Source: a virus
Taxonomy: Duplodnaviria > Heunggongvirae > Uroviricota > Caudoviricetes
Strand: one strand, 5' to 3'
IMG/VR virus record: IMGVR_UViG_3300032893_000479
Coordinates: 1 to 10,367 of that record
DNA: 10,367 nt
A program made the position numbers and the translations under genes. Positions within the stretch are counted from its first letter, which is position 1. Each line of letters starts with the position of its first letter. The notes under the pieces are model-generated. The model saw nothing but the letters and a program-made list of their open reading frames with translations. It did no database searches and was not told where the DNA came from. This document shows, one piece after another, positions 1 to 10,367 of the stretch.

Positions 1-831
1 TCATATGTAACCCTCCCGCCGCCCTTCAACCGTATTGTAAAACGGCACGTCTCTATTAGCGATATCGAAATCGACTTTGAAAATAATGAATTTACCATTG
101 CAGCCCGGATTAAATTTGCTGTCGATAGTCAGTCGGCCGCCCAATTTTGTTTTTGGATCAAGCAAATATTTTACGCGCACGCCGTGCTCAGTTTGTTCAG
201 GAACACCGATCATTCCGCTGTTGGCGCTCAATACGTGCTCAACATTTTGCAACGGTTTTCCAACGTCTTTGACATACAACGTACCGTCTTCCACGAACGC
301 GTTAACATTGGCAATTTGATTTAATTTGCCCACTTGACGAATCGTCGCGCCTGCGAATTGATAATTTTCAACGTTCGTATCCGTCGCTTGGAATACTAGT
401 CCGACGCCAATATCCGACGCGATCCGAGCCGCTAGCGTGGACAATTTAATTGTTGACAGCATCGATCGTGCAACGATTGCGCCTGTTGCAAATTGATTGC
501 TAATAGCGCTCATTGTCAACGCTATTTCTGGCGGCTGACTTGCCTGAGCCCGCTGTATATCACCGCTGAACAATCTGTAATACCCCGTACTAGATCGTCC
601 AGCTTCGATAATCAACCGTTTTGGCGATCGCAAGAAATTGTAGGGGGTGACTTGCGTTAGAATATAATTGCGCACGTCGGCCGCGAGATTGTAAATAGTA
701 ACTGTAGCCTCGTTATTCAATTCGTTGGCGTACAGCGTGCCGCGCGCAACAATACGCAAATCATCGTAGTAGCGCATTTGCCCGTCGATTTGTATTCCGA
801 CGCGCAGCAAGCGATCGTCGAAGCTACCCAT
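1..831 (-). CDS. Hypothetical protein (276 aa), candidate baseplate hub / distal tail protein by position
   Basis: Complete ORF with ATG at 829..831 and stop TGA at 1..3. Third gene after the TMP in the same orientation. Function inferred only from synteny. Confidence 0.4.
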   Translation of the reverse strand: MGSFDDRLLRVGIQIDGQMRYYDDLRIVARGTLYANELNNEATVTIYNLAADVRNYILTQVTPYNFLRSPKRLIIEAGRSSTGYYRLFSGDIQRAQASQPPEIALTMSAISNQFATGAIVARSMLSTIKLSTLAARIASDIGVGLVFQATDTNVENYQFAGATIRQVGKLNQIANVNAFVEDGTLYVKDVGKPLQNVEHVLSANSGMIGVPEQTEHGVRVKYLLDPKTKLGGRLTIDSKFNPGCNGKFIIFKVDFDIANRDVPFYNTVEGRREGYI

Positions 832-1144
832 TGCGCAAATTCTCCAACTCGGCGCCAGTCATGAATAACAAAAAATGCGTCGTTCCGAATTTTGTATAAT
901 CAGGATATTCCAGATTGGTATCCCAGTAGAAATTGCCGTAGCCGGCTTCAAGGTACCGATAAGGCAAAATACCTGTTATGGGCATGCAACGTGTATTTTG
1001 TATTAAGGTTATGCCGTCGCGAATAACGGTTGAAAACATCATACCCGACTCAATCGTTCGCAACGTGATGTCGTACCTCACGTTATCGAACGTGATCGTA
1101 AAATTCTGATTTGGTAATTGCTGAAGCGGTATATTTTGCGGCAT
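824..1144 (-). CDS. Hypothetical protein (106 aa), probable tail/baseplate-associated component
   Basis: ATG start overlapping the upstream stop by 1 nt (TAATG), and overlapping the downstream gene by 8 nt. Coding is supported by operon context. No motif recognised. Confidence 0.4.
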   Translation of the reverse strand: MPQNIPLQQLPNQNFTITFDNVRYDITLRTIESGMMFSTVIRDGITLIQNTRCMPITGILPYRYLEAGYGNFYWDTNLEYPDYTKFGTTHFLLFMTGAELENLRNG

Positions 1145-1635
1145 TAGTAAAAAATCCTATGCAATATAGATTCGCTGCCACTTTGTTCGCCGCGCTTTAC
1201 CGTAGACTGATCGGTAGGTTTGCGAACATTGTTTGCCGCCAATTGTTGAAATTGCGCTTTAACAAATATTGCTTGTTTCAAATTGATAACGATTTTAATT
1301 GTTTTCCACAATTCCGGTTCTTCCTCATGCGGCATGCTAACGATAATCATATCCTGATACACATCGGACCGCGTTTGCACGATGAGCTTATCGCCGCTAA
1401 TCCAACGTTGCTTAATCGCAGCGTAAACGTCTTTAGCGTCATTTCCCGGTATCATCACGATCAAATCTATTTCCACCGGATCGATCACGCGGGCGTCCGT
1501 GATGCTGATTCCACTTTCTAGCGGATGTTCGAACGATCTGGACGTTTCGAAAATAGACGCGCGCATTGCTTCCGATGTCGGAAACAATTGCGTGTAATCC
1601 GCGTCATATAGACCAACAATTTCTTGTTCTGTCAT
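1144..1635 (-). CDS. Hypothetical protein (163 aa), probable tail/baseplate-associated component
   Basis: ATG start overlapping the TMP stop (ATGA). First gene after the TMP, where distal tail or baseplate initiator proteins are normally encoded. Acidic composition. No motif recognised. Confidence 0.4.
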   Translation of the reverse strand: MTEQEIVGLYDADYTQLFPTSEAMRASIFETSRSFEHPLESGISITDARVIDPVEIDLIVMIPGNDAKDVYAAIKQRWISGDKLIVQTRSDVYQDMIIVSMPHEEEPELWKTIKIVINLKQAIFVKAQFQQLAANNVRKPTDQSTVKRGEQSGSESILHRIFY

Positions 1636-3197
1636 GCCATCAGCCCGTCATCGTGTTGATAGATAGCGCTGTTGATATACAACTTTAAGGCGTCGCTGAT
1701 ATTTTGCGCCACTTCGTTGGCATCTTTCGCTTCGGTTATTACGTCGATTTTATCGATGCTGATTGAATTTTGCTGACTACGAGCTGTCGCCATATTTGTG
1801 ATCGAAGATGATGTCTGCGGCAGCAGCGGATTACGCGACATCATTGCTAATTGTTGTTGCGCGTTATTTGTCAGCGGATTTTCTATTTGCGGTAAATCAA
1901 CGGCACCGCTTTCTGGATTGAACATATCTTTAAATTTTTGCCATATTTCAGGTATTTTTGAAATTTTATCAACAACGAAATTGAAAACTTTTTGGACCCA
2001 GTTGAAATAAACTTCCCACGCTTTTGATGCAAACTCAGCGGCACTCGCGGCAGCTTCGCCAAACCATCGCAGCGCCTGCGCAGTTTTCGGAAAGCGTTTT
2101 TCCAGTTTGTCCAAAAATTTATCCATGCTTGCGCCAGCAGTTTCTAATGCGGCGCTAAAGCCTTTTGTAAAAACATCTGATAAGAAGTCGGCAACGATAC
2201 CGATCCATTCTTTCAAATATTTAAAAACTTCGACAACTTTATCGATTGCCTCTTTAAACAACGGATATTTTTTTGCCAACTCACCGATCACGCTTGCGTG
2301 ACCGTTTAAATACGCATTGAAATCGTCCCAAATAAGCGCGGCGGCGGCGGCCACTGCAATCAACGCCATCCACGGGGCGAGAAATGCAATGGTTGCAATC
2401 GTCGCTCTAACGAGCGCTGGAACAAGGATTCCCGATAATGCAACGCCAAGCGATACAAAAAATTTCGTCATGAATGCGCTGTTGTTTCGCATCCACATCA
2501 ATATTTTTTCCAGCAGTTTGAAAAACTCGGTGAGATATGGCATTACCGCCACGGCAAGCCGACGCTTGATATCTTCAAAAACTAAGTTCGTCATGCGTTG
2601 CTGAATCACGAACTTAGTTGAAATTTCGACTTGTTCTTTTGTTACAACGCCAAGTTCTTTTTGTTTGGCAATGAATTCGTCTAGCGCTTTGCCGCCCATT
2701 TGCAGCAGATTGATCGTGCCGATATCGAGACCGAAACGCTCGCCCAATCGTTGCGCTTGAATTTTGCTAAGCCCTTCGAATCTTCCCTGTATCTGCTTCA
2801 GCGTTTCGATAGGGTCGCGACCGTAACGACTCAATGCTTCAAGACTGCGCGCAAATCCTTCCGCCGTGCCGCCTGCTAGCTCCGCAGCCTGTGTCCACGC
2901 GCTATACTGCTCCGCCGATACTTTTGCTTGTTGCGCGTTTAGCCCGAGCTGTCGCGTGCTTTCAGCAACGTCGAATACCATCGATTTCAGGGAATGAAAT
3001 GCGAGAAAGCTCGCACCGAGCGACGCCGCACTTTTAACGGCATCGACAAGGTGCTTGCCGAGCATGTCGGCCGCTTTATCGGTTTTATTGAGGGTGTCGC
3101 CGAGTTGTTTGCTTTGCTTATCGGAATGCGCAAGCCCTTCGTCCAGTTTGCTGGCGTCGGATTCGAACAGGAAGTAAAAAACGTCGAGAATATTCAC
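1632..3197 (-). CDS. Tail tape measure protein (TMP)
   Basis: 521-aa ORF immediately 3' of the chaperone/frameshift pair. Predicted largely alpha-helical, with a long central hydrophobic segment (approx. residues 246..290, FFVSLGVALSGILVPALVRATIATIAFLAPWMALIAVAAAAALIW) typical of TMPs, plus regularly spaced aromatic residues. Apparent start is GTG at 3195..3197, preceded by AGGA at about 10-nt spacing. The stop overlaps the next gene as ATGA. Confidence 0.8.
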   Translation of the reverse strand: MNILDVFYFLFESDASKLDEGLAHSDKQSKQLGDTLNKTDKAADMLGKHLVDAVKSAASLGASFLAFHSLKSMVFDVAESTRQLGLNAQQAKVSAEQYSAWTQAAELAGGTAEGFARSLEALSRYGRDPIETLKQIQGRFEGLSKIQAQRLGERFGLDIGTINLLQMGGKALDEFIAKQKELGVVTKEQVEISTKFVIQQRMTNLVFEDIKRRLAVAVMPYLTEFFKLLEKILMWMRNNSAFMTKFFVSLGVALSGILVPALVRATIATIAFLAPWMALIAVAAAAALIWDDFNAYLNGHASVIGELAKKYPLFKEAIDKVVEVFKYLKEWIGIVADFLSDVFTKGFSAALETAGASMDKFLDKLEKRFPKTAQALRWFGEAAASAAEFASKAWEVYFNWVQKVFNFVVDKISKIPEIWQKFKDMFNPESGAVDLPQIENPLTNNAQQQLAMMSRNPLLPQTSSSITNMATARSQQNSISIDKIDVITEAKDANEVAQNISDALKLYINSAIYQHDDGLMA

Positions 3198-3756
3198 TAT
3201 CGATTATTCCTGTTCGCATGCTCTGCGGCTAAGTATTCGTTGGCGCGCCGTACAATCAGAACCTCCGCCATATCACAGAGGTCTTGCAACGTGTAGACCG
3301 TGGCCAGCTCATGCGGCGTCGCTAATCTTTCGCCGGTGACTGCGCCCGCAATTGGGTCAACATTTGCGTAATCAATGCTTGGAACTTGCCCGAGAATTGA
3401 TCGAGGTAATGTGACAGCGCGCCTTTCGCGAAAAAACTGCAATTGTATTCCATCATTGCCCACTCGATCCGTATCAGCGCCTCGTAATCTGGTACATGGT
3501 TGTTGATGAGATCGAGAGAACCCAACCGCAGAGGGTCGGCGCCCGCAATGGGCACCGCAACATGCGACAGAATTTTTATCATCAGCGCTTCGTTAGTTTT
3601 GTAGTCGCCAATTTTCGGCGCGGCAGTCAGCGGATATTGCGTGACAATTTCACGACCTGCCGTTGCCGAAAATTTACTGATGATAAAAATTTTTTCCGAT
3701 CCGTCCATGAGCTTTATCGGTTGTTCTTTTGGCTGTAGCAGCGGAAGATGATTCAT
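3197..3756 (-). CDS. Tail assembly chaperone, long form produced by programmed -1 frameshift (approx. 186 aa: frame 0 from 3756 to the slippery site, then -1 frame to 3197)
   Basis: Frame-0 codons AGT TTT TTC (plus coordinates 3438..3430) give, after a -1 slip, CAG TTT TTT CGC..., which continues open for 77 codons to a TAG at 3197..3199 that overlaps the TMP start. The -1 frame ORF has no credible independent start (the track's start is a GTG in the middle of the chaperone gene with no RBS). Confidence 0.55.
3322..3756 (-). CDS. Tail assembly chaperone (short, in-frame form; gpG/gp E-like role)
   Basis: 144-aa ORF immediately 5' of the tape measure gene. An overlapping ORF (3197..3463) in the -1 frame runs from inside this gene to exactly the TMP start, and a T_TTT_TTC slippery heptamer lies in the overlap. 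This is the conserved chaperone frameshift architecture of tailed phages. Confidence 0.65.
   Translation of the reverse strand: MNHLPLLQPKEQPIKLMDGSEKIFIISKFSATAGREIVTQYPLTAAPKIGDYKTNEALMIKILSHVAVPIAGADPLRLGSLDLINNHVPDYEALIRIEWAMMEYNCSFFAKGALSHYLDQFSGKFQALITQMLTQLRAQSPAKD
3430..3436 (-). other. Putative -1 programmed ribosomal frameshift slippery heptamer T_TTT_TTC (X_XXY_YYZ)
   Basis: Plus-strand gaaaaaa at 3430..3436 is TTTTTTC on the coding strand, positioned as T TTT TTC relative to the chaperone frame. It lies in the overlap between the chaperone ORF and the -1 frame extension ORF. A short GC-rich palindrome (CGCG AAAGG CGCG) follows immediately but is a weak and atypically close stimulatory element. 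Confidence 0.55.
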
Positions 3757-4199
3757 AGTGCGGACACCTTATTTTCGAATGCGAAAATGTAGGGCTTTGA
3801 CTTCATGCGCCCCTGACTCGCAACAGGATTGCCCGGAATGGCCGACGTGATAGCCCCTTTCGACAAAGTGATCACATTGCCGCTCGGGTAAACCAGCGTC
3901 AAAGTTATGATATCGCGTGCGGGCCGCTTGCCTGCGGCAACACGATTCGCCTCCGCAATAATGCCGAGCGCGATATCGTCGAGCGAACCGGGCACCACGG
4001 CCAGCGTTGCCATGATGGGGTTAGGCTTTGACCATGTGATCAAATTGCCGTTGAGCCCCATTGCAGTTTGCGCCAGCTCCAAGGCTGCGATATCGAGCGG
4101 ATCGATATCGTCGGCGAACTGCGTGATAGGCACGCCGACCGGAAAAGTAACGCTAGCCTTAACCGTGGCGATTAGACCAAAACCTGAAATATCGGACAT
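3753..4199 (-). CDS. Putative tail tube protein
   Basis: 148-aa ORF with ATG start and a good RBS, positioned between the putative sheath and the tail assembly chaperone. Size and position are typical of myovirus tube proteins. The final 4 nt overlap the chaperone start (ATGA). Confidence 0.55.
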   Translation of the reverse strand: MSDISGFGLIATVKASVTFPVGVPITQFADDIDPLDIAALELAQTAMGLNGNLITWSKPNPIMATLAVVPGSLDDIALGIIAEANRVAAGKRPARDIITLTLVYPSGNVITLSKGAITSAIPGNPVASQGRMKSKPYIFAFENKVSAL

Positions 4200-4207
4200 T
4201 GCTGTAA

Positions 4208-4213
4208 TCTCCC
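4208..4213 (-). promoter_or_regulatory. Shine-Dalgarno motif (GGGAGA) for the putative tail tube gene
   Basis: The 16-nt intergenic gap 4200..4215 reads on the minus strand CCGGGAGATTACAGCA ATG; GGGAGA lies 8 nt upstream of the ATG at 4197..4199. Confidence 0.5.
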
Positions 4214-4215
4214 GG

Positions 4216-5730
4216 TTAGATTAAGTTGTGAGTGCCTTCGACTTTGCGGATCACGTCATCTTTCGAATAGATCAGCAAATACGTTGCTTTATAGATGGTT
4301 TGATTGTTGACGACTTCCGGCACGATAACGACATTGTACCAGTAGCCAATGCCTTGCACTTGTTGCCAAGCGTTGCTATCACCGCTCTGCAACGCAATAT
4401 CGGCCTTTTGCAACGGCGTAAGCACTTTGCCGATGCTAATTGTACCGTTGAACAGTGCTTGATCTACGCCGTCTTGAAGTAGATTGAGGCATATCGAGCG
4501 ACCGGCTTCGTCAGCATCGATTTTCGGCAGCACCAGCAACGCGTTCATGAACGACGCAGTGAGATACGACGACAACCACTGTTCGTTGCCGTAAACGTTT
4601 TGATCTGCCGGCGACGTATTCGGACCAAACAGCGAACCGCGCTGATAGAAAGATACGTTCTGACCGTTGATCTGCGTGTTACCGTAATAGTTAACGCGAA
4701 TCGCATCCAGCGAGTCCGACGTGGGCGTATCGGTAACCAATGCGGTCACCGGAAATTGTTGGAACATATAGTTGGACGTTGAATTTTGTTTCGTGTAGTC
4801 CGTTGCCGCAAGCTGAATCATCGGAATCATTTCCGGGTATTCGTTCGGATAATTTATCGGATCGTTTATCGTCATGGCGGTCCCCGCGATTTGACCGATC
4901 GCAGACGCGATTACCGACGCAGACGCTTGATCACAGGCGAGCATGAATTGGTACGAGACACTATTTGACGCGTTCCATTCTACAATTTCTGCCCAATCGC
5001 CTATGTCCGTAGTTGCCATGAACAAAAACGAACCGTAATTATTACTTATCTGATCTGCTGCAATAACTGCATCTAATGCCGACGAACCAGCCGTGCCGAC
5101 AACATCGATTGCGCCATCCGCAACGTACAGATTTAGCAAATTTCCAACATCGGTAGCACCTGAGCCGGCCTGTAAAAATGTAAGTGAACCTGCGCCCGCA
5201 ACACCGCCAACAACAACGAATCGATTATTCGTCGAATCGTAGGTTACCGTGCAAGTGGTCAGCTGCGGATCGGAGTTCGTTCGCAAACGCGTTTGCAACA
5301 ACGAAGCAATGTTGGCGTAGCTAGTGGCAGTCGAGAAATTGATGCTACCGATTGAGATAGGGCCGCCACCAGTGCTTACCGATACGGTACCGGCCGTAGT
5401 GGAAATAAGGCCGCTCAGAGCAGTCGGCGATTTTCCGCCGAATACACGGGCAGCAAACGCGTTCGGCTGCCAGCCAGCAAAACAAATCTTTTTCGCCTGG
5501 GTTAGCTGTTTGGAAACCCAGCCAAAATAAAACGCTGCACGACGATACTCTTCTGATGAAGTGCCAAAGAATGCGGCAACATCATCTACCGATGTGTATT
5601 CGATGATGTTATCGGTAGATACTAACGGATTGCTAGTAAAAATTCTTCCGATAAGCTCGCGCACTTGCACAATAGCCGAACCGCCGACACCAGACCGAAT
5701 ATCAACATATTTGCGGTAATTAATGGACAT
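4216..5730 (-). CDS. Putative contractile tail sheath protein (DUF3383-like by recollection)
   Basis: 504-aa ORF with ATG start and a strong RBS. Located directly 5' of a ~150-aa tube-sized gene, then chaperone/frameshift and tape measure, which is the canonical myovirus order sheath-tube-chaperone-TMP. Size is typical of phage sheaths. Contains a G/S/T/A-rich low-complexity internal region. Family assignment was not verified by search. Confidence 0.6.
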   Translation of the reverse strand: MSINYRKYVDIRSGVGGSAIVQVRELIGRIFTSNPLVSTDNIIEYTSVDDVAAFFGTSSEEYRRAAFYFGWVSKQLTQAKKICFAGWQPNAFAARVFGGKSPTALSGLISTTAGTVSVSTGGGPISIGSINFSTATSYANIASLLQTRLRTNSDPQLTTCTVTYDSTNNRFVVVGGVAGAGSLTFLQAGSGATDVGNLLNLYVADGAIDVVGTAGSSALDAVIAADQISNNYGSFLFMATTDIGDWAEIVEWNASNSVSYQFMLACDQASASVIASAIGQIAGTAMTINDPINYPNEYPEMIPMIQLAATDYTKQNSTSNYMFQQFPVTALVTDTPTSDSLDAIRVNYYGNTQINGQNVSFYQRGSLFGPNTSPADQNVYGNEQWLSSYLTASFMNALLVLPKIDADEAGRSICLNLLQDGVDQALFNGTISIGKVLTPLQKADIALQSGDSNAWQQVQGIGYWYNVVIVPEVVNNQTIYKATYLLIYSKDDVIRKVEGTHNLI

Positions 5731-5732
5731 AG

Positions 5733-6266
5733 TTAAACCCTCTTGAGTTGCACATCTATGGCGGTTAATTGTCTTTGTGCGCTGCGCACGGTGTCGGTAT
5801 GTGTAAGTATTACATCAAAACTCGGCTCAGCTTGCCACTGCGATCTGTCGTTATCACTTTTCGGATTCGGCACCGTCGTAATCCTCAAAATATTTGCGCC
5901 GCCCGCGATCAACGCTTTTTGAAACGGCCAATCGTTCATGATCAGCGCGAATCTGTTCAACAAATCCGATGCGGTGTCACTTGTAACATCTTCAGGGGTG
6001 CTGTTAACCACTGCGTTAATTTGGACCGTTGTCATTATGACCTGCTCAACGATACGCCAATAATTCGTACCATCCCATTGCGAATATTTTGCTGGTGATC
6101 CGTAACGTTGATTGACAACGATATTCATCGACAAATAACGCGATTGCGGGCGCCCTTGTTGTGTCGGTTGAAAATTTTGCACAAAAGGCACGTCGCTATA
6201 GCCGGCCGCATCCAACAATGGGCGCGCTGTTGAAAGAATCAGACGAATCAAATCTTTTTCTTTCAT
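5733..6266 (-). CDS. Putative tail terminator / sheath-proximal neck protein (hypothetical)
   Basis: 177-aa ORF with ATG start, ending 2 nt upstream of the putative sheath gene start. In myovirus modules the gene immediately 5' of the sheath is commonly the tail terminator or tail completion protein. Assignment is by synteny only. Confidence 0.35.
   Translation of the reverse strand: MKEKDLIRLILSTARPLLDAAGYSDVPFVQNFQPTQQGRPQSRYLSMNIVVNQRYGSPAKYSQWDGTNYWRIVEQVIMTTVQINAVVNSTPEDVTSDTASDLLNRFALIMNDWPFQKALIAGGANILRITTVPNPKSDNDRSQWQAEPSFDVILTHTDTVRSAQRQLTAIDVQLKRV
5738..5742 (-). promoter_or_regulatory. Shine-Dalgarno motif (GAGGG) for the putative sheath gene
   Basis: Minus-strand sequence AAGAGGG TTTAACT ATG: GAGGG lies 7 nt upstream of the ATG at 5728..5730. 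Confidence 0.5.
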
Positions 6267-6709
6267 CAGTCGTAACCTATGCCCGGCATGTCGTATCCGA
6301 GCCCCGGCGTGTCGTATGCAAGTGCGCTAGGCACGACGATAGGGCCAATATCAACGGCTATCGTGTATGCCCAACCGTCTAGCACGTACCAGTCATTATC
6401 GTTGATCATCTGATAACGCCTGCCGTTCCATTCGAACTGGTCGCCACCGTCGCCCCGATCGAGAGAAATTATCCCCTCTTGGATAAAAAGTTCAACGTAA
6501 TTTTTTTTCAAATCGAAACCAAGCGCGGCGTATTTAGAACGATTGACTGCTTGTACGCTGCAATCGCCGACATCTATTCCAAGTTCGAAAGTTGACACGT
6601 AATAGCCAATTTCATTGAGCTGTCGGCTTGCGCATTTGAAATAACGTACCGTTTGCGGCGCGATCAGCGCAAGAGCACTGTACAACAAGTTTGATCCGGG
6701 CACGCTCAT
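6266..6709 (-). CDS. Putative neck / tail completion protein (hypothetical)
   Basis: 147-aa ORF with ATG start, ATGA overlap with the upstream gene and 1-nt overlap with the downstream gene. Lies between the adaptor-type genes and the gene preceding the sheath. C-terminus carries a short tandem peptide repeat (PGLGYDMPGIGYD). Confidence 0.4.
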   Translation of the reverse strand: MSVPGSNLLYSALALIAPQTVRYFKCASRQLNEIGYYVSTFELGIDVGDCSVQAVNRSKYAALGFDLKKNYVELFIQEGIISLDRGDGGDQFEWNGRRYQMINDNDWYVLDGWAYTIAVDIGPIVVPSALAYDTPGLGYDMPGIGYD

Positions 6710-7245
6710 TTGCTGCCAACCTCGCTTGTTAGCGTGGCAATCATATGGTCGCTATCGTTCAGCGGCTTATCGCTGACGCCGCTATAATCTGGTGGATTCG
6801 GCCCCTTGAGCGCTGCCGCCGCTTCGCCGACAGTCTTCCCGGTAATTTTGCGCCCTTGTCTGCGCCATAAACGCAATACCATCGTAATGGGCGACAAAGG
6901 CGGTGTAAAAATGTTGGATAATGTTTGAAGAATATCGCCTTCGGCCTGTTGTGCAACGCCTTTCAAAACATCTTCAACGGTCAATTCGCCGCGCATAGCC
7001 ATTGCTGCACCTTCGCCCATTAACTTTTTCCATTCTTCGCCGCGCTGCGCTTCCGTTGTGCGCATGAATGAGCGCGAGCCACCGTCGCGAAATTCCTGTA
7101 TCGCCGCCACGTAGGCCACGGGGGTGCCGTCCTCGTATTTTGCAGACTCAAACCAACCGACACGCGATGCCAACTTGCTGAGCTTTCTGCTTTCTCGCTC
7201 GAATCTCAGCCGTGAGGCAGTTTTCTTATGCACCAATTTGCCCAT
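6706..7245 (-). CDS. Putative head-tail joining / head closure protein (HK97 gp10-like)
   Basis: The ORF track begins at a TTG (7246..7248), but the second codon is ATG (7243..7245) and overlaps the upstream stop as TGATG, so I place the start at 7245 (179 aa). The segment RVGWFESAKYEDGTPVAYVAAIQEFRDGGSRSFMRTT resembles the HK97 gp10 family pattern. Basic N-terminus. Position fits a neck gene. Confidence 0.45.
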   Translation of the reverse strand: MGKLVHKKTASRLRFERESRKLSKLASRVGWFESAKYEDGTPVAYVAAIQEFRDGGSRSFMRTTEAQRGEEWKKLMGEGAAMAMRGELTVEDVLKGVAQQAEGDILQTLSNIFTPPLSPITMVLRLWRRQGRKITGKTVGEAAAALKGPNPPDYSGVSDKPLNDSDHMIATLTSEVGSK

Positions 7246-7688
7246 CAAAAACTACCGCCAAATTTGCGGAAGCCTGCGCGCTCGCAGCTGCCGCCAATAT
7301 AAAAACCGCCTGACGATTTGACGCTGAAAAAAGCCCACAAACGCATGCCGTATGGCGTCAGAGATAGCCATTGCTGCCACGCATTTTTAACGGGTGGCGC
7401 TTGCACGGTGACGCTAACCTTATCGATCGATGACGCAGTGACCGCGCCGACTTGGCCTTGACCGCGCTGCGCGTTGAGATTTGCTTGCCACTGCATCATG
7501 TGAGCGGTCATCAAATAAAGCGCCTCGGTGATTTCTGCCGCGCTCATCAGACACCATTCCTGCGGATACAGATAAACTTTCGCCGTATCGAAATACGCTT
7601 GTATATAGGCGTCGGAATACGCCGAAGTGCTGGCGAATGCCGGAAATTCTGCGCGAAAATCTGCAATGACAATAACAATATCGCTCAT
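7245..7688 (-). CDS. Putative head-tail adaptor/connector protein (DUF4054-like by recollection)
   Basis: 147-aa ORF with ATG start and 4-nt ATGA overlaps to both neighbours. Small protein between a head-proximal gene and the neck genes. The N-terminal sequence (MSDIVIVIADFRAEFPAFAS...) resembles the phage adaptor family I recall as DUF4054; this was not verified by search. Confidence 0.45.
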   Translation of the reverse strand: MSDIVIVIADFRAEFPAFASTSAYSDAYIQAYFDTAKVYLYPQEWCLMSAAEITEALYLMTAHMMQWQANLNAQRGQGQVGAVTASSIDKVSVTVQAPPVKNAWQQWLSLTPYGMRLWAFFSVKSSGGFYIGGSCERAGFRKFGGSF

Positions 7689-9454
7689 GATTTTAACCCG
7701 TAAGCCGGTTTGACTCCCGAATAGTTTATCGTGTTTTCGTTCGAATAGACGGGGCTTTTGTAATTTTGCTCAGGAATCAAAATAGGCGGCGTGTAATTGT
7801 TGTCGAAAGTATCGCTAAACAACGACAAAGCGCGAGTGCGCAATCCGTTCAATGGTACGTAAAGGGGATCGCCGATTGTGTAAACGCCGTACCCCACCGC
7901 AGTGGCAGAGTCTTGATACAAACAAATTTCAGCTGCATTAAAACCGGAATAAATTGCGCTAATGTACAAATTAGAATACACGGCACCGGCTTCGCTTGGC
8001 TCAGTAACACATGCCGAAGAAAATACCGCACCCGAGCGAATAGCGCTAAGCACTCGGTTTTCGCAAGTGTACGTACTAGTTTTGAGCTGCCATCCGTTCG
8101 CGTAGCAATAAGCCGCAAGAGCGTCCCAAATTTGACGCATGCTCAAACCTTGCCACACCAATGAAAAACTTGTCGTCGTACCGTCTGCTTTTAGCACGAT
8201 GTTAGTCGTTGTCAAATCAATTTTTGCTGCCGTCGACGGTCCGCGCACGCCGAAAGTGGCTACGTAATTGCCGAGTTCATTTTTTATTTTTACTTGCATG
8301 ACGGGGCTGTTGCCAGCCGAATAATAGTTATTCCATTCGGCATCTTCGCTGCTGTCCCAACCGGCGACAATATTGCTGCCGGTCTGGATGTCGCCAGCTG
8401 CAAGGGGTGTCGTCCAACATACGCCTATCGGAAATAATGGCGCGGCCGGAGTGCTGGTGTGGAACACTGCGATGGCACCGAGCGCATATGAATAATCTGC
8501 AGCGACTTCAGCGGGACGATGCGGACCGTAATAACTATCGTCGAGCACCGCGCGCATGAATACGCCGCTGGTCGGCACGAAGCCGTCATTTCCGGGCGCT
8601 TCTATTGCGCCCGGACCTTCGTCGGGAAATATGCTCGGCGGATTGCCGCGATAGTATTGCGCAAGCCTGTCATCCAGATAGTACGGATAATTATCGATAA
8701 ATAAATTTTCTGTTTGTCGTCCGTTGCGATCGACGATGTTCGGAATGTTGAATTTCGGCGGTAAATGCACGGCAAGCGTGGTCACCCACGCTTGCCGGTA
8801 CGTCTGCGAGTAAAGTTTTGGAATACTCGTTCGATTTAATTGTTCGGCAGCAATGCTGCGATCGATGATACCTTTTGCAAAAGTCTCATCGTAGTTTGTC
8901 GATACCGGCATGTTGAAAACAGATACAACATCAAGCGGTGTCGTGTACGGGTGCAAATATTTTTGCGGATTGACTTCGACCATGAACGCGGGCAGCGTCG
9001 GCTTCGGACTGATCGGCAAATTTTGCAAATTGGCGTTTGCTTGCGCCTGCGTAGGATCAGGATTTGCAACAATGCCGACAGTAGAAATGTTTGGATTTGC
9101 TGCGATGTAATCGGAAATTTTGAAAAGATTTTTGCAGATCACTGAATTGGTCAAATCGCCAATACCGGGCAAATAAGGGAAATCGATCGCAGGACAAGTG
9201 CCAATGAAAAGAATAACTTTCAGGCCGCCTGCGACAGGATGATTAATCATCGTATCGAGAAAAGTTTTAACATCGGCCCACGTAGTCAATCTTGCCGATG
9301 TATCCAATGCGCCGGACAATAGTAATTTGTTTTGCGCGGGAACGTTGCGTTGCGCCATGTAATAATTGAGCACATCGACAGCGGCCGGCACTGACGAACG
9401 TGCGACAACGAGAATATCCGCAGGCGTGATAGGCACGGGGGTGATGATCGCCAT
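7685..9454 (-). CDS. Large hypothetical structural protein (589 aa); candidate major capsid or head decoration protein by position, function unknown
   Basis: Long uninterrupted minus-strand ORF with ATG start at 9452..9454, preceded by GGAG (plus coordinates 9463..9466) at 8-nt spacing. Sits immediately 5' of the putative head-tail adaptor gene and overlaps it as ATGA. Composition is N/S/T/Y/G/P-rich. I recognise no motif. Confidence 0.5.
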   Translation of the reverse strand: MAIITPVPITPADILVVARSSVPAAVDVLNYYMAQRNVPAQNKLLLSGALDTSARLTTWADVKTFLDTMINHPVAGGLKVILFIGTCPAIDFPYLPGIGDLTNSVICKNLFKISDYIAANPNISTVGIVANPDPTQAQANANLQNLPISPKPTLPAFMVEVNPQKYLHPYTTPLDVVSVFNMPVSTNYDETFAKGIIDRSIAAEQLNRTSIPKLYSQTYRQAWVTTLAVHLPPKFNIPNIVDRNGRQTENLFIDNYPYYLDDRLAQYYRGNPPSIFPDEGPGAIEAPGNDGFVPTSGVFMRAVLDDSYYGPHRPAEVAADYSYALGAIAVFHTSTPAAPLFPIGVCWTTPLAAGDIQTGSNIVAGWDSSEDAEWNNYYSAGNSPVMQVKIKNELGNYVATFGVRGPSTAAKIDLTTTNIVLKADGTTTSFSLVWQGLSMRQIWDALAAYCYANGWQLKTSTYTCENRVLSAIRSGAVFSSACVTEPSEAGAVYSNLYISAIYSGFNAAEICLYQDSATAVGYGVYTIGDPLYVPLNGLRTRALSLFSDTFDNNYTPPILIPEQNYKSPVYSNENTINYSGVKPAYGLKS

Positions 9455-10367
9455 TACAACAACTCCACGCAGACGGCGCGAGCGCTCATCGTGAACTCAT
9501 TCGGCGACACGATCGACAAGTTATTTATGCCGATAATCAAACGCACGTTGATATCGACAGATATGCAAGGATAATTTGTCGGACCGAAAGCGAAATCTCC
9601 GTTGTAAATGGGTATTGCGTCGCTAGGCGAACCGCCTTTTTTAATTGTCAATGTGCCGCCCGTATTCGACACGTGGAAAGGAATTTCAAAAGAGCCGACT
9701 TTTCCGGCGTATGTGCCGCGTGTGCCTTTTATGGCGACAAAAATTCGTCCAACAAGATCGCCTTGTCGGTTATTGGTGCCGGCCATTGACAAGAATTCGC
9801 CGCCAGAAGTGAATTGATCGAACGTAAAACGCGGTACGACTACGTCCACGCTTTGCGAAAATCCTTCATTCGCAAATACCACGCTATTGTTATACAGCGA
9901 GTCGATGCCGTAGCCGGCATGGAACAACGGCGAAATCGATGAGATTAGATTGCCGAACCCAAAAACGATATTTTGGCTTTGCAACTGATAGCCCGCATTT
10001 CCGCTCCCTATGCAAATACTGAAAGGGCCGGAAATACTGTTATTCATCCCCCATATGAAATTATAAATAACGTTCGCATTCGGATCGAAAGTAATATCGT
10101 CAAAAGTGATAACCGATTGTTGATATGCTTTGCCGAATTCTGCCGGCAATTGTTTGATTGCCGCTTTTGTTTTGATATTGTTGTAGCCGCTTGTCGCATC
10201 GCCGATATCAATATTGATGCTATACAGCATCGCGCTTAATGCCGGCACTACGCCGGACATCGAACACTGAAGTGCATTGCCAAAAAATCGAATTTCATTG
10301 ATCACGGTGGCGACGCCGACAGTCAGCATCGGCAGCTGAAAGACTGCGACTTTTTTAGCAGCGGTGC
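9454..10367 (-). CDS. Hypothetical protein, probably virion (head-associated) structural protein; 5' end likely outside the window
   Basis: Minus-strand ORF 9454..10329 (291 aa from the first ATG). The same frame stays open with no stop from 10330 to the window edge at 10367, and there is no Shine-Dalgarno motif before the ATG at 10329, so the true start is probably beyond the window. Stop TAA overlaps the ATG of the next gene by 1 nt (TAATG). Protein is rich in N/S/G/T/Y/F, which suggests a beta-rich structural protein. No family recognised. Confidence 0.5.
   Translation of the reverse strand, partial: TAAKKVAVFQLPMLTVGVATVINEIRFFGNALQCSMSGVVPALSAMLYSINIDIGDATSGYNNIKTKAAIKQLPAEFGKAYQQSVITFDDITFDPNANVIYNFIWGMNNSISGPFSICIGSGNAGYQLQSQNIVFGFGNLISSISPLFHAGYGIDSLYNNSVVFANEGFSQSVDVVVPRFTFDQFTSGGEFLSMAGTNNRQGDLVGRIFVAIKGTRGTYAGKVGSFEIPFHVSNTGGTLTIKKGGSPSDAIPIYNGDFAFGPTNYPCISVDINVRLIIGINNLSIVSPNEFTMSARAVCVELL
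9463..9466 (-). promoter_or_regulatory. Shine-Dalgarno motif (GGAG) for the 589-aa gene
   Basis: Minus-strand sequence GTGGAGTTGTTGTA ATG: GGAG lies 8 nt upstream of the ATG at 9452..9454, inside the 3' end of the upstream gene. Confidence 0.4.

What the first reader, a model, noticed from the sequence alone, without database searches (positions are those of the whole stretch)
1..10367. Complete neck-plus-contractile-tail module: complete phage/prophage versus phage-derived particle is undetermined
Every gene in 10.4 kb is on one strand with stop/start overlaps (ATGA, TAATG/TGATG) or gaps of 16 nt or less, indicating one translationally coupled late transcript. Adaptor and neck-type genes upstream of the sheath argue for a head-bearing phage rather than a headless tailocin, but terminase, portal and an unambiguous capsid gene are not visible in the window. 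Whether this is an active phage, a prophage remnant or a domesticated particle needs the flanking sequence.
Basis: inference. Interest (0 to 1): 0.35.

Follow-up and report, generated by a model that had tools for sequence, protein, structure and literature searches.

The report
Myovirus neck-tail operon with orphan insert
The window is the neck and contractile-tail part of the late operon of a real, head-bearing phage of the E217/PB1 structural type, which is ordinary apart from two orphan genes inserted between the head genes and the neck genes.

Summary
All 14 reading frames are on the minus strand, with 1-8 nt overlaps or gaps of 2 and 16 nt. The one 124-nt "gap" is filled by the -1 frameshift extension of the tail chaperone.

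Eleven products match E217/PB1-type neck, sheath, tube, tape-measure and inner-baseplate families.

The phage-versus-tailocin question is largely settled. The window is identical to part of a 22.7-kb metagenome contig.
- Upstream lie a terminase C-terminus, portal, MuF, DUF2213, cement and major capsid protein.
- Downstream lie the spike, outer baseplate, tail fibre, endolysin and holin.
- No bacterial gene is present.

So this is a fragment of a head-bearing myovirus genome, not a tailocin or contractile injection system. Temperate or virulent lifestyle stays open because the replication half of the genome is missing. The tail module is also not complete within the window.

The one unusual feature is a 2.9-kb insert of two genes (369 aa and 589 aa) between the last head gene and the adaptor.
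- It is absent from all 88 related loci.
- The 369-aa protein had no detectable homolog in the searches run.
- The 589-aa protein is a distant relative of the uncharacterised TIGR03790 family. Its nearest relatives sit in podovirus structural modules.
- Function is unknown for both.

The parts
9454..10367 (-). g07: the 3' 303 codons of a 369-aa orphan protein. The full gene runs to window-equivalent position 10563, outside the window. It is the first gene of the 2.9-kb insert.
   Evidence: Gene call on the contig. No Pfam, PHROG, NCBIfam, PADLOC or PDB-sequence hit. It is a singleton in the 5.8-billion-cluster database, has no tblastn hit in GenBank phages, and is absent from 88 related loci. 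Its codon usage fits the rest of the phage.
7685..9454 (-). g08: a 589-aa protein, distant relative of the uncharacterised TIGR03790 family. It is the second gene of the insert.
   Evidence: TIGR03790 matches the N-terminus only, E 1.5e-4, below the cut-off. A full HMMER scan found 22 distant homologs, E 8e-23 to 8e-4. Shared motifs are listed. 20 of 21 aligned members hit TIGR03790. Homologs lie in podovirus structural modules. The AF2 model has pTM 0.72 but no Foldseek match below E 0.1.
7245..7688 (-). Head-to-tail adaptor (E217 gp27 / DUF4054 type), 147 aa
   Evidence: PF13262 E 1e-18. phrog_302 E 2.3e-33. The role of gp27 is described in PMC10329688.
6706..7245 (-). 179-aa neck protein (Neck1 / tail-completion type)
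   Evidence: phrog_222 E 1.7e-26. Conserved at this position in 70 related loci.
6266..6709 (-). Collar protein (E217 gp28 type), 147 aa
   Evidence: PF22755 E 3.2e-34
5733..6266 (-). Gateway / tail terminator (E217 gp29 type), 177 aa
   Evidence: PF22756 E 9.9e-32 and PF23961 E 4.9e-7
4216..5730 (-). Tail sheath (DUF3383 / E217 gp31 type), 504 aa
   Evidence: PF11863 E 8.3e-102. phrog_205. 433 phage records match at under 60% identity.
3753..4199 (-). Tail tube (E217 gp32 type), 148 aa
   Evidence: PF22764 E 7.8e-56
3322..3756 (-). Tail assembly chaperone, short (G-like) form, 144 aa
   Evidence: It sits between the tube and TMP genes, and is conserved in 67 related loci. The equivalent gene is annotated as a chaperone in Yersinia phage P744.
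3197..3436 (-). -1 frameshift extension of the chaperone (GT-like form, predicted 186 aa). The slippery heptamer T TTT TTC is at 3436-3430. The stop overlaps the TMP start (TAGTG).
   Evidence: Sequence read directly. Fusion built and heptamer located. The extension peptide hits phrog_3976 at E 7.2e-12 and is conserved in 41 related loci at the same place.
1632..3197 (-). Tape measure protein, 521 aa, GTG start
   Evidence: phrog_34923 E 1.6e-38 and other TMP PHROGs
1144..1635 (-). Inner baseplate (cap) protein, Dit-like / E217 gp38-like, 163 aa
   Evidence: PF21821 E 6.6e-11. PF22760 E 0.0027, below its cut-off.
824..1144 (-). Baseplate plug (Pam3 gp18 type), 106 aa
   Evidence: PF22479 E 2.3e-15
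1..831 (-). Baseplate hub (E217 gp41 type), 276 aa. Its stop codon ends at window position 1.
   Evidence: PF22759 E 7.6e-76, full length

Best explanation
The window is the central part of the late structural operon of a tailed phage with a contractile tail of the E217/PB1/BcepB1A structural type.

Shown: gene identities, gene order, tight coupling and the flanking genes.
- The contig runs from the terminase large subunit (C-terminal part) through portal, MuF-like protein, DUF2213 protein, cement and major capsid protein.
- It continues with a conserved 129-aa protein, the two orphan genes, adaptor, Neck1-like protein, collar and gateway.
- Then come sheath, tube, a chaperone with a -1 frameshift, tape measure, inner baseplate and hub.
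- It ends with spike, sheath initiator, J-like wedge, Wedge1, fibre, and then a membrane protein, endolysin and holin.

Inferred from the E217 cryo-EM work:
- Twelve adaptor subunits dock on the portal.
- Hexameric collar and gateway step the symmetry down and cap the tube and sheath.
- The tape measure (521 aa) sets a tail length of roughly 75-80 nm, using about 0.15 nm per residue.
- The chaperone and its frameshifted long form load the tape measure during tube assembly.
- The Dit-like, plug and hub proteins close the distal end of the tube.

The two inserted genes are co-transcribed and translationally coupled to the adaptor gene. Most likely they encode accessory proteins made late. My best guess, at low confidence, is a virion-attached pair: g07 as a fibre-like protein and g08 as an alpha/beta, possibly envelope-acting, protein.
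For: - Family matches for 11 of the 14 frames; a twelfth, the chaperone, is assigned by position and conservation.
- The window is an exact substring of ENA contig ERZ27256510 k141_1519920. That contig's genes include portal (PF06381, E 5.7e-77), MuF, DUF2213, Phage_cement, MCP (PF09950, E 3.7e-9), a terminase C-terminus 45-54% identical to the gene upstream of the portal in relatives, spike N-domain, sheath initiator, phrog_6 wedge, Wedge1, fibre, endolysin (phrog_894, E 4.5e-10) and holin (phrog_1356, E 1.4e-24).
- Genes g01-g24 are syntenic in 88 related loci. Median query coverage is at least 0.79 for 20 of the 22 conserved genes (TMP 0.65, fibre 0.23), so there is no sign of decay.
- The frameshift site and its extension are conserved.
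- Neck protein roles are taken from PMC10329688.
- Cultured relatives at about 40% sheath identity are complete phages: Erwinia RF1, Yersinia P744, BcepB1A, Xanthomonas Carpasina.
Against: - Only about half of a genome of the expected 36-47 kb is available. No replication, lysogeny or regulatory genes have been seen.
- The terminase is truncated by the contig end, and its Pfam hit is weak (E 0.0049).
- Some relatives lie inside bacterial chromosomes, for example Singulisphaera sp. PoT and Planctomycetaceae MAG contigs. A prophage state is therefore possible.
- Nothing here shows that particles are made.
- The role proposed for g07 and g08 rests on position and context only.
Confidence: 0.85

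Rival explanations
1. It is an integrated prophage, intact or cryptic, of an uncultured bacterium rather than a free virulent phage. The structural operon would be the same, but the element would reside in a chromosome.
For: Sheath relatives at 37-43% identity with the same gene order occur inside large bacterial contigs. These include a complete 9.8-Mb Singulisphaera chromosome and a 1.03-Mb Planctomycetaceae contig.
Against: No bacterial gene, integrase, tRNA or attachment repeat is present in 22.7 kb. All conserved genes are full length. Many relatives are free phage genomes of 36-68 kb. This rival is compatible with the best explanation on everything except lifestyle.
Confidence: 0.3
2. 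It is a headless phage-tail-like particle, either an R-type tailocin or an extracellular contractile injection system.
For: Within the window alone there is no capsid, portal or terminase gene.
Against: Portal, MuF, cement, MCP and a terminase C-terminus lie immediately upstream on the same strand. A portal-binding adaptor, collar and gateway are present in the window. No contractile-injection-system hallmark, such as an AAA+ ATPase or PAAR/VgrG-type spike family, was hit.
Confidence: 0.02
3. It is a domesticated, head-bearing particle (gene-transfer-agent-like) that has kept its structural and lysis genes but lost autonomous replication.
For: The replication and regulatory half of the genome has not been seen, so its absence cannot be excluded.
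Against: Known gene transfer agents are siphovirus-like and lie among conserved host genes, and there are no host genes here. The module is a singleton lineage with at most 47% full-length sheath identity to anything else. It was not seen conserved across host genomes, as a domesticated element would be.
Confidence: 0.05

Closest known systems
Pseudomonas phage E217 / PB1-like phages (Pbunavirus), neck, tail and baseplate-cap proteins gp27, gp28, gp29, gp31, gp32, gp38 and gp41 (cryo-EM, PMC10329688)
   Same: The same Pfam families occur in the same order: adaptor, collar, gateway, sheath, tube, baseplate cap and hub. The flanks add Pa193_gp24, cement, MCP, the spike N-domain and the sheath initiator.
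   Different: - Sequence identity is low. All 433 sheath hits in GenBank phages are below 60%, and the best is 42%.
- A 179-aa Neck1-like gene lies between the adaptor and the collar.
- The expected genome size is about 40-47 kb, as in BcepB1A-type relatives, rather than about 66 kb.
- The two-gene insert upstream of the adaptor is absent from every relative examined.
Erwinia phage RF1, Yersinia phage vB_YenM_P744 and Burkholderia phage BcepB1A (42-47 kb myoviruses)
   Same: These are the best sheath matches among cultured phages, at 39-42% identity. Gene order is the same from terminase to tail fibre, including the roughly 115-nt chaperone-to-TMP spacing that holds the frameshift extension.
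   Different: In RF1 the small post-MCP gene is followed directly by the adaptor gene, whereas here 2.9 kb intervenes. No DNA-level similarity was found by megablast.
TIGR03790 family (NCBIfam; uncharacterised secreted bacterial proteins), for g08 only
   Same: Shared features are the N-terminal strand-helix motif (VLVV..., YY..R.IP..N), a central IDD.IAAE motif, and C-terminal GA...G...EP and GDPLY.PF motifs.
   Different: g08 scores 21 bits and its phage relatives 32-48 bits, against a cut-off of 67. Only the cellular proteins P0048 and P0049, whose N-termini look like signal peptides by eye, pass. The phage forms are about 200 residues longer, with a beta-rich insert. No publication mentions the family.
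Lambda G/GT-type tail assembly chaperone frameshift (established knowledge: Xu, Hendrix and Duda 2004)
   Same: Two overlapping frames lie between the tube gene and the tape-measure gene. There is an X XXY YYZ slippery heptamer (T TTT TTC), a -1 shift, and an extension ending at the TMP start.
   Different: No sequence similarity to lambda G/GT. Frameshifting was not measured.

Membership tests
E217/PB1-type contractile-tail virion module | Portal-binding head-to-tail adaptor of the gp27 / DUF4054 family | tested here: met
   PF13262, 67.9 bits against a cut-off of 23.9
E217/PB1-type contractile-tail virion module | Collar (gp28) and gateway/terminator (gp29) directly upstream of the sheath gene | tested here: met
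   PF22755, 117.8 bits, and PF22756, 110.5 bits, both against a cut-off of 27. Order is confirmed by coordinates.
E217/PB1-type contractile-tail virion module | DUF3383-type sheath and gp32-type tube | tested here: met
   PF11863, 342 bits. PF22764, 188 bits.
E217/PB1-type contractile-tail virion module | Baseplate cap and hub (gp36-38 tube-like proteins, gp41 hub) and gp43-type tip | tested here: met
   gp41 PF22759, 255 bits. Dit_like, 42.9 bits. gp38, only 17.7 bits, below its cut-off. Pam3 gp18 plug, 57 bits. Spike N-domain PF18352, 59 bits, lies outside the window.
Complete tailed phage (as opposed to tailocin) | Terminase, portal and major capsid genes contiguous with the tail genes | tested here: met
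   Portal PF06381, 259 bits. MCP PF09950, 36.7 bits against a cut-off of 26.8. The terminase is C-terminal only, 45-54% identical to the relatives' gene upstream of the portal.
Complete tailed phage (as opposed to tailocin) | Lysis genes | tested here: met
   Endolysin phrog_894, E 4.5e-10. Holin phrog_1356, E 1.4e-24, and DUF7940, 77.8 bits.
Complete tailed phage (as opposed to tailocin) | Replication, regulation or lysogeny module; genome termini | not testable with these tools
   The contig ends at 22.7 kb, and no longer contig carries these proteins.
R-type tailocin / extracellular contractile injection system | Absence of head and packaging genes next to the tail cluster | tested here: not met
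   Head and packaging genes lie immediately upstream.
TIGR03790 family (g08) | Score at or above the curated NCBIfam cut-off of 67 bits over the full model | tested here: not met
   21.4 bits, N-terminal 34 residues only. The link is transitive, through homologs that score 32-48 bits and share the C-terminal motifs.
G/GT-type frameshifted tail chaperone | Slippery heptamer plus a conserved overlapping -1 ORF between the tube and TMP genes | tested here: met
   T TTT TTC at 3436-3430. Extension conserved in 41 loci, and phrog_3976 E 7.2e-12.
G/GT-type frameshifted tail chaperone | Production of both the short and the long protein | not testable with these tools
   Needs proteomics or a reporter assay.

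The most novel reading that the evidence does not exclude
g07 and g08 may form a previously undescribed accessory cassette of phage virions. g07 would be a fibre-like protein. g08 would be a member of a phage-specific branch of the uncharacterised TIGR03790 superfamily, whose cellular members look secreted. The cassette would have been exchanged between podovirus tail modules and the head-neck junction of this myovirus. It would act on the host envelope, or decorate the neck or head, in a way not yet known for any cultured phage.
Probability: 0.3. Interest if true: 0.45.

Novelty: new member of a known kind. Interest (0 to 1): 0.25.

Why it matters
The question as posed has an ordinary answer: this is a phage, not a tailocin. 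That matters mainly for correct annotation of this contig as viral.

The lineage is deep-branching. No relative exceeds about 47% full-length sheath identity in GenBank phages, IMG/VR, the GTDB genomes or the JGI metagenomes. It therefore adds diversity to a structurally well-understood tail type.

The only lead of wider interest is g08. It ties the uncharacterised bacterial TIGR03790 family to phage structural modules of two morphotypes. That gives a concrete place to look for the family's function.

Tried and rejected
- Megablast of the whole window against GenBank phages and complete E. coli genomes: no match.
- Exact 41-mer of g08 against JGI metagenome contigs: no match.
- Word-indexed protein search of g07, g08 and the A1 profile: only self, plus one 527-aa partial hit.
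- Single-sequence AF2 of g08: unusable, pLDDT 32.
- AF2 with the 21-sequence alignment gave pTM 0.72. Foldseek against PDB and BFVD then returned only generic flavodoxin/Rossmann-like local matches at E > 0.1, so no fold assignment was made.
- PDB sequence searches with g07, g08 and the A1 profile: nothing.
- PADLOC: no defence-system match for g06, g07, g08 or g10, so there is no support for a defence or anti-defence reading from that library.
- Pfam on all A1 members: nothing beyond one fn3 hit.
- Flanking direct or inverted repeats around the insert: only short chance-level matches, so no sign of a mobile-element insertion.
- Rfam and tRNA scans of the contig: empty.
- Homology between g07 and the genes upstream of g08 homologs in podoviruses: none. 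Those neighbours share an N-terminal FPALKYLFKC-like motif among themselves only.
- A regular-expression search for the g07 N-terminal motif in all fetched loci found only g07 itself. My recollection that it resembles fibre N-termini is therefore untested.
- The 51-54-aa proteins listed in the sheath's 90% cluster are unrelated sequences, a database artefact.
Full report
**Observation**

The window carries one chain of reading frames, all on the minus strand. In transcription order the junctions are overlaps of 1, 4, 1, 4 and 1 nt, gaps of 2 and 16 nt, then overlaps of 4, 1, 4, 1 and 8 nt.

The single exception is 124 nt between the chaperone stop at 3322 and the GTG start of the tape measure gene at 3197. 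An ORF in the -1 frame (3197-3463) covers this stretch. Its stop overlaps the tape measure start as TAGTG.

Consensus promoter-like and terminator-like sites on the contig are no more frequent than in shuffled sequence. The description of a tightly coupled single-strand gene block is therefore correct. It is also correct that the window holds no terminase, portal or capsid gene.

**What the genes are**

Pfam and PHROG profiles identify the following:

| Window coordinates | Product | Key evidence |
|---|---|---|
| 7245-7688 | Head-to-tail adaptor, E217 gp27 / DUF4054 | Pfam, PHROG |
| 6706-7245 | Neck1 / tail-completion-type protein | phrog_222 |
| 6266-6709 | Collar, gp28 | Pfam |
| 5733-6266 | Gateway / tail terminator, gp29 | Pfam |
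| 4216-5730 | Sheath, DUF3383 | 342 bits |
| 3753-4199 | Tube, gp32 | Pfam |
| 3322-3756 | Tail chaperone | position and conservation |
| 1632-3197 | Tape measure | several TMP PHROGs |
| 1144-1635 | Dit-like inner baseplate protein | Pfam |
| 824-1144 | Plug, Pam3 gp18-like | Pfam |
| 1-831 | Hub, gp41 | 255 bits |

The roles of gp27, gp28, gp29, gp31, gp32, gp36-38 and gp41 are known from the E217 cryo-EM structure (PMC10329688, read).

In the chaperone gene the heptamer T TTT TTC lies at 3436-3430, in the X XXY YYZ phase. A -1 slip there joins 109 residues of the chaperone to a 77-residue extension, giving a 186-aa long form. That extension matches phrog_3976 (E 7.2e-12). It is conserved at the same place in 41 related loci. 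This is the G/GT arrangement known from lambda and many other tailed phages (established knowledge). Frameshifting itself is inferred, not measured.

**Surroundings**

The sheath protein is encoded, residue for residue, on ENA metagenome contig ERZ27256510 k141_1519920 (22,694 bp). The reverse complement of the whole window is an exact substring of that contig. The window also appears to be a 10,367-bp JGI/IMG contig in its own right.

Upstream, on the same strand, lie:
- the C-terminal 254 residues of a protein 45-54% identical to the gene that precedes the portal in relatives, with a weak terminase nuclease-domain hit
- a portal (PF06381, E 5.7e-77)
- a MuF-like protein
- a DUF2213 / Pa193_gp24 protein
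- a cement protein
- a 377-aa major capsid protein (PF09950)
- a conserved 129-aa protein (phrog_3714)

Downstream lie a spike N-domain protein, a sheath initiator, a J-like wedge protein (phrog_6), Wedge1 and a 535-aa fibre. After these come a small membrane protein, an endolysin (phrog_894, E 4.5e-10) and a holin (phrog_1356, E 1.4e-24; DUF7940).

There is no bacterial gene, tRNA or Rfam element.

The element is a head-bearing phage genome fragment.

**Relatives**

No DNA-level match exists in GenBank phages or E. coli genomes. At protein level the sheath finds 433 phage records, all below 60% identity. The best are Erwinia phage RF1 (42%), the Xanthomonas Carpasina group (41%), Yersinia P744 (40%) and BcepB1A (39%), along with the PB1-like Pseudomonas phages.

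Scans of IMG/VR, of one genome per GTDB species, and of JGI metagenomes found nothing above about 47% identity over the full sheath.

Genes g01 to g24 of the contig are syntenic across 88 related loci. Median query coverage is at least 0.79 for 20 of the 22 conserved genes; the tape measure (0.65) and the fibre (0.23) are lower. The genes here therefore look intact rather than decayed.

Some relatives lie inside large bacterial contigs. These include a complete Singulisphaera chromosome and other Planctomycetes assemblies. The clade therefore includes integrated forms. The lifestyle of this phage cannot be read from the half-genome available.

**The one unusual feature**

In 60 of the 62 related loci that contain both genes, the small post-capsid gene (g06) is followed by the adaptor gene within 210 nt. 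The other two loci have gaps of 447 and 529 nt. Here the distance is 2.9 kb and holds two genes.
- g07 is 369 aa. Its 3' 303 codons occupy window 9454-10367.
- g08 is 589 aa and occupies window 7685-9454.

Neither has a homolog in any related locus, nor in 50,697 GenBank phage records. Neither has a neighbour in the word-indexed search of 5.8 billion protein clusters.

Their codon usage fits the rest of the phage and is frame-specific. They are translationally coupled to each other and to the adaptor gene. No flanking repeats suggest a mobile element. They are therefore real, resident genes.

An exhaustive HMMER scan of 1.84 billion representatives found 22 distant homologs of g08, with E from 8e-23 to 8e-4 and mostly 545-616 aa long. 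The alignment shows shared motifs at both ends and in the middle:
- an N-terminal VLV.YR..D ... YY..R.IP..N
- IDD.IAAE
- YR.GA....QS
- SR...A...GA....G...EP
- a terminal GDPLYRPF

Twenty of the 21 aligned proteins hit NCBIfam TIGR03790. Only two cellular members, whose N-termini look like signal peptides by eye, pass its cut-off. The phage-type members score 32-48 bits and g08 scores 21 bits, against a cut-off of 67.

The phage-type homologs lie in podovirus structural modules. These carry Terminase_6N, P22_portal, Phage_capsid_3, SU10_adaptor and Phage_stabilise, and the homolog comes after the adaptor and small tail genes, or between the terminase and the portal.

An AlphaFold2 model built with this alignment is moderately confident (pTM 0.72, pLDDT 63.7). 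It shows an alpha/beta core with a beta-rich insert. Foldseek finds nothing below E 0.1 in PDB or BFVD. PADLOC gives no hit, and no paper mentions TIGR03790.

g07 had no detectable relative in the searches run; unlike g08, it was not put through the exhaustive HMMER scan or a structure prediction.

My reading is that both are late-expressed accessory proteins, probably virion-associated. This rests on operon position and on the structural-module context of the g08 homologs. I hold it at roughly 30% confidence.

**Comparison and novelty**

As a neck-and-tail module this is a new, deep-branching member of a known and structurally solved kind, and it works like E217. Membership of the E217-type module is met on every profile-based criterion tested. 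The exception is the weak gp38 match. Membership of g08 in TIGR03790 proper is not met. It belongs to a related, undescribed, phage-borne branch.

**Verdict**

"Head-bearing phage" is right. "Complete tail module" is not, because the outer baseplate and fibres lie outside the window. Prophage versus free phage stays open.

Interest is low for the question as posed (0.25). The g07-g08 insert is a modest lead.

Noticed in passing
window 7685-10367 (L003 5168-8046): A two-gene, 2.9-kb insert (369-aa orphan plus 589-aa TIGR03790-like protein) lies between the post-capsid gene and the adaptor gene. It is absent from all 88 related loci. In 60 of the 62 loci that contain both genes, those two genes are at most 210 nt apart.
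   Followed up: yes
window 3430-3436 and 3197-3463: A T TTT TTC slippery heptamer and a conserved -1 ORF give a predicted 186-aa long form of the tail chaperone. This explains the only apparent intergenic gap in the window.
   Followed up: yes
L003 5123-5150 (outside the window, about 200 nt beyond window end 10367): A terminator-like hairpin with an 11-bp GC-rich stem, followed by a U run, lies between the 129-aa post-capsid gene and g07. MFE is -19.9 kcal/mol and z is only -1.5. A second GGCGG...CCGCC+T-run site follows the capsid gene at L003 4673-4689. They may attenuate transcription between the head genes and the neck/tail genes.
   Followed up: partly
L058 8849-9868, L059 680-1441, L056 883-1587: The genes immediately upstream of g08 homologs in podovirus contigs share an N-terminal motif (FPALKYLFKC-like), but show no similarity to g07. 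This may be a conserved partner protein of the phage TIGR03790-like family.
   Followed up: partly
L050, L051, L052, L055 (genome contigs): The same head-neck-tail gene order, at 39-43% sheath identity, occurs in Planctomycetes assemblies, including a complete Singulisphaera sp. PoT chromosome. Cellular TIGR03790 proteins are, from memory, also common in that group. No link to the host of this phage was established.
   Followed up: no
L003 20247-21245: The lysis region at the contig end contains a 94-aa membrane/coiled-coil protein with weak spanin-like hits. It also contains a 142-aa endolysin with a weak Peptidase_M15_4 match, and a DUF7940 holin. The contig breaks right after it.
   Followed up: partly
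protein cluster of the sheath: The 90%-identity cluster that holds the sheath protein also lists 31 unrelated 51-54-aa proteins from megabase-sized ENA contigs. This looks like a clustering artefact of the database, not biology.
   Followed up: yes
whole window: The window length equals that of a JGI/IMG contig (10,367 bp) carrying the same tape measure protein, so the window ends are probably assembly breaks. The ENA contig covers it exactly and extends it on both sides.
   Followed up: yes
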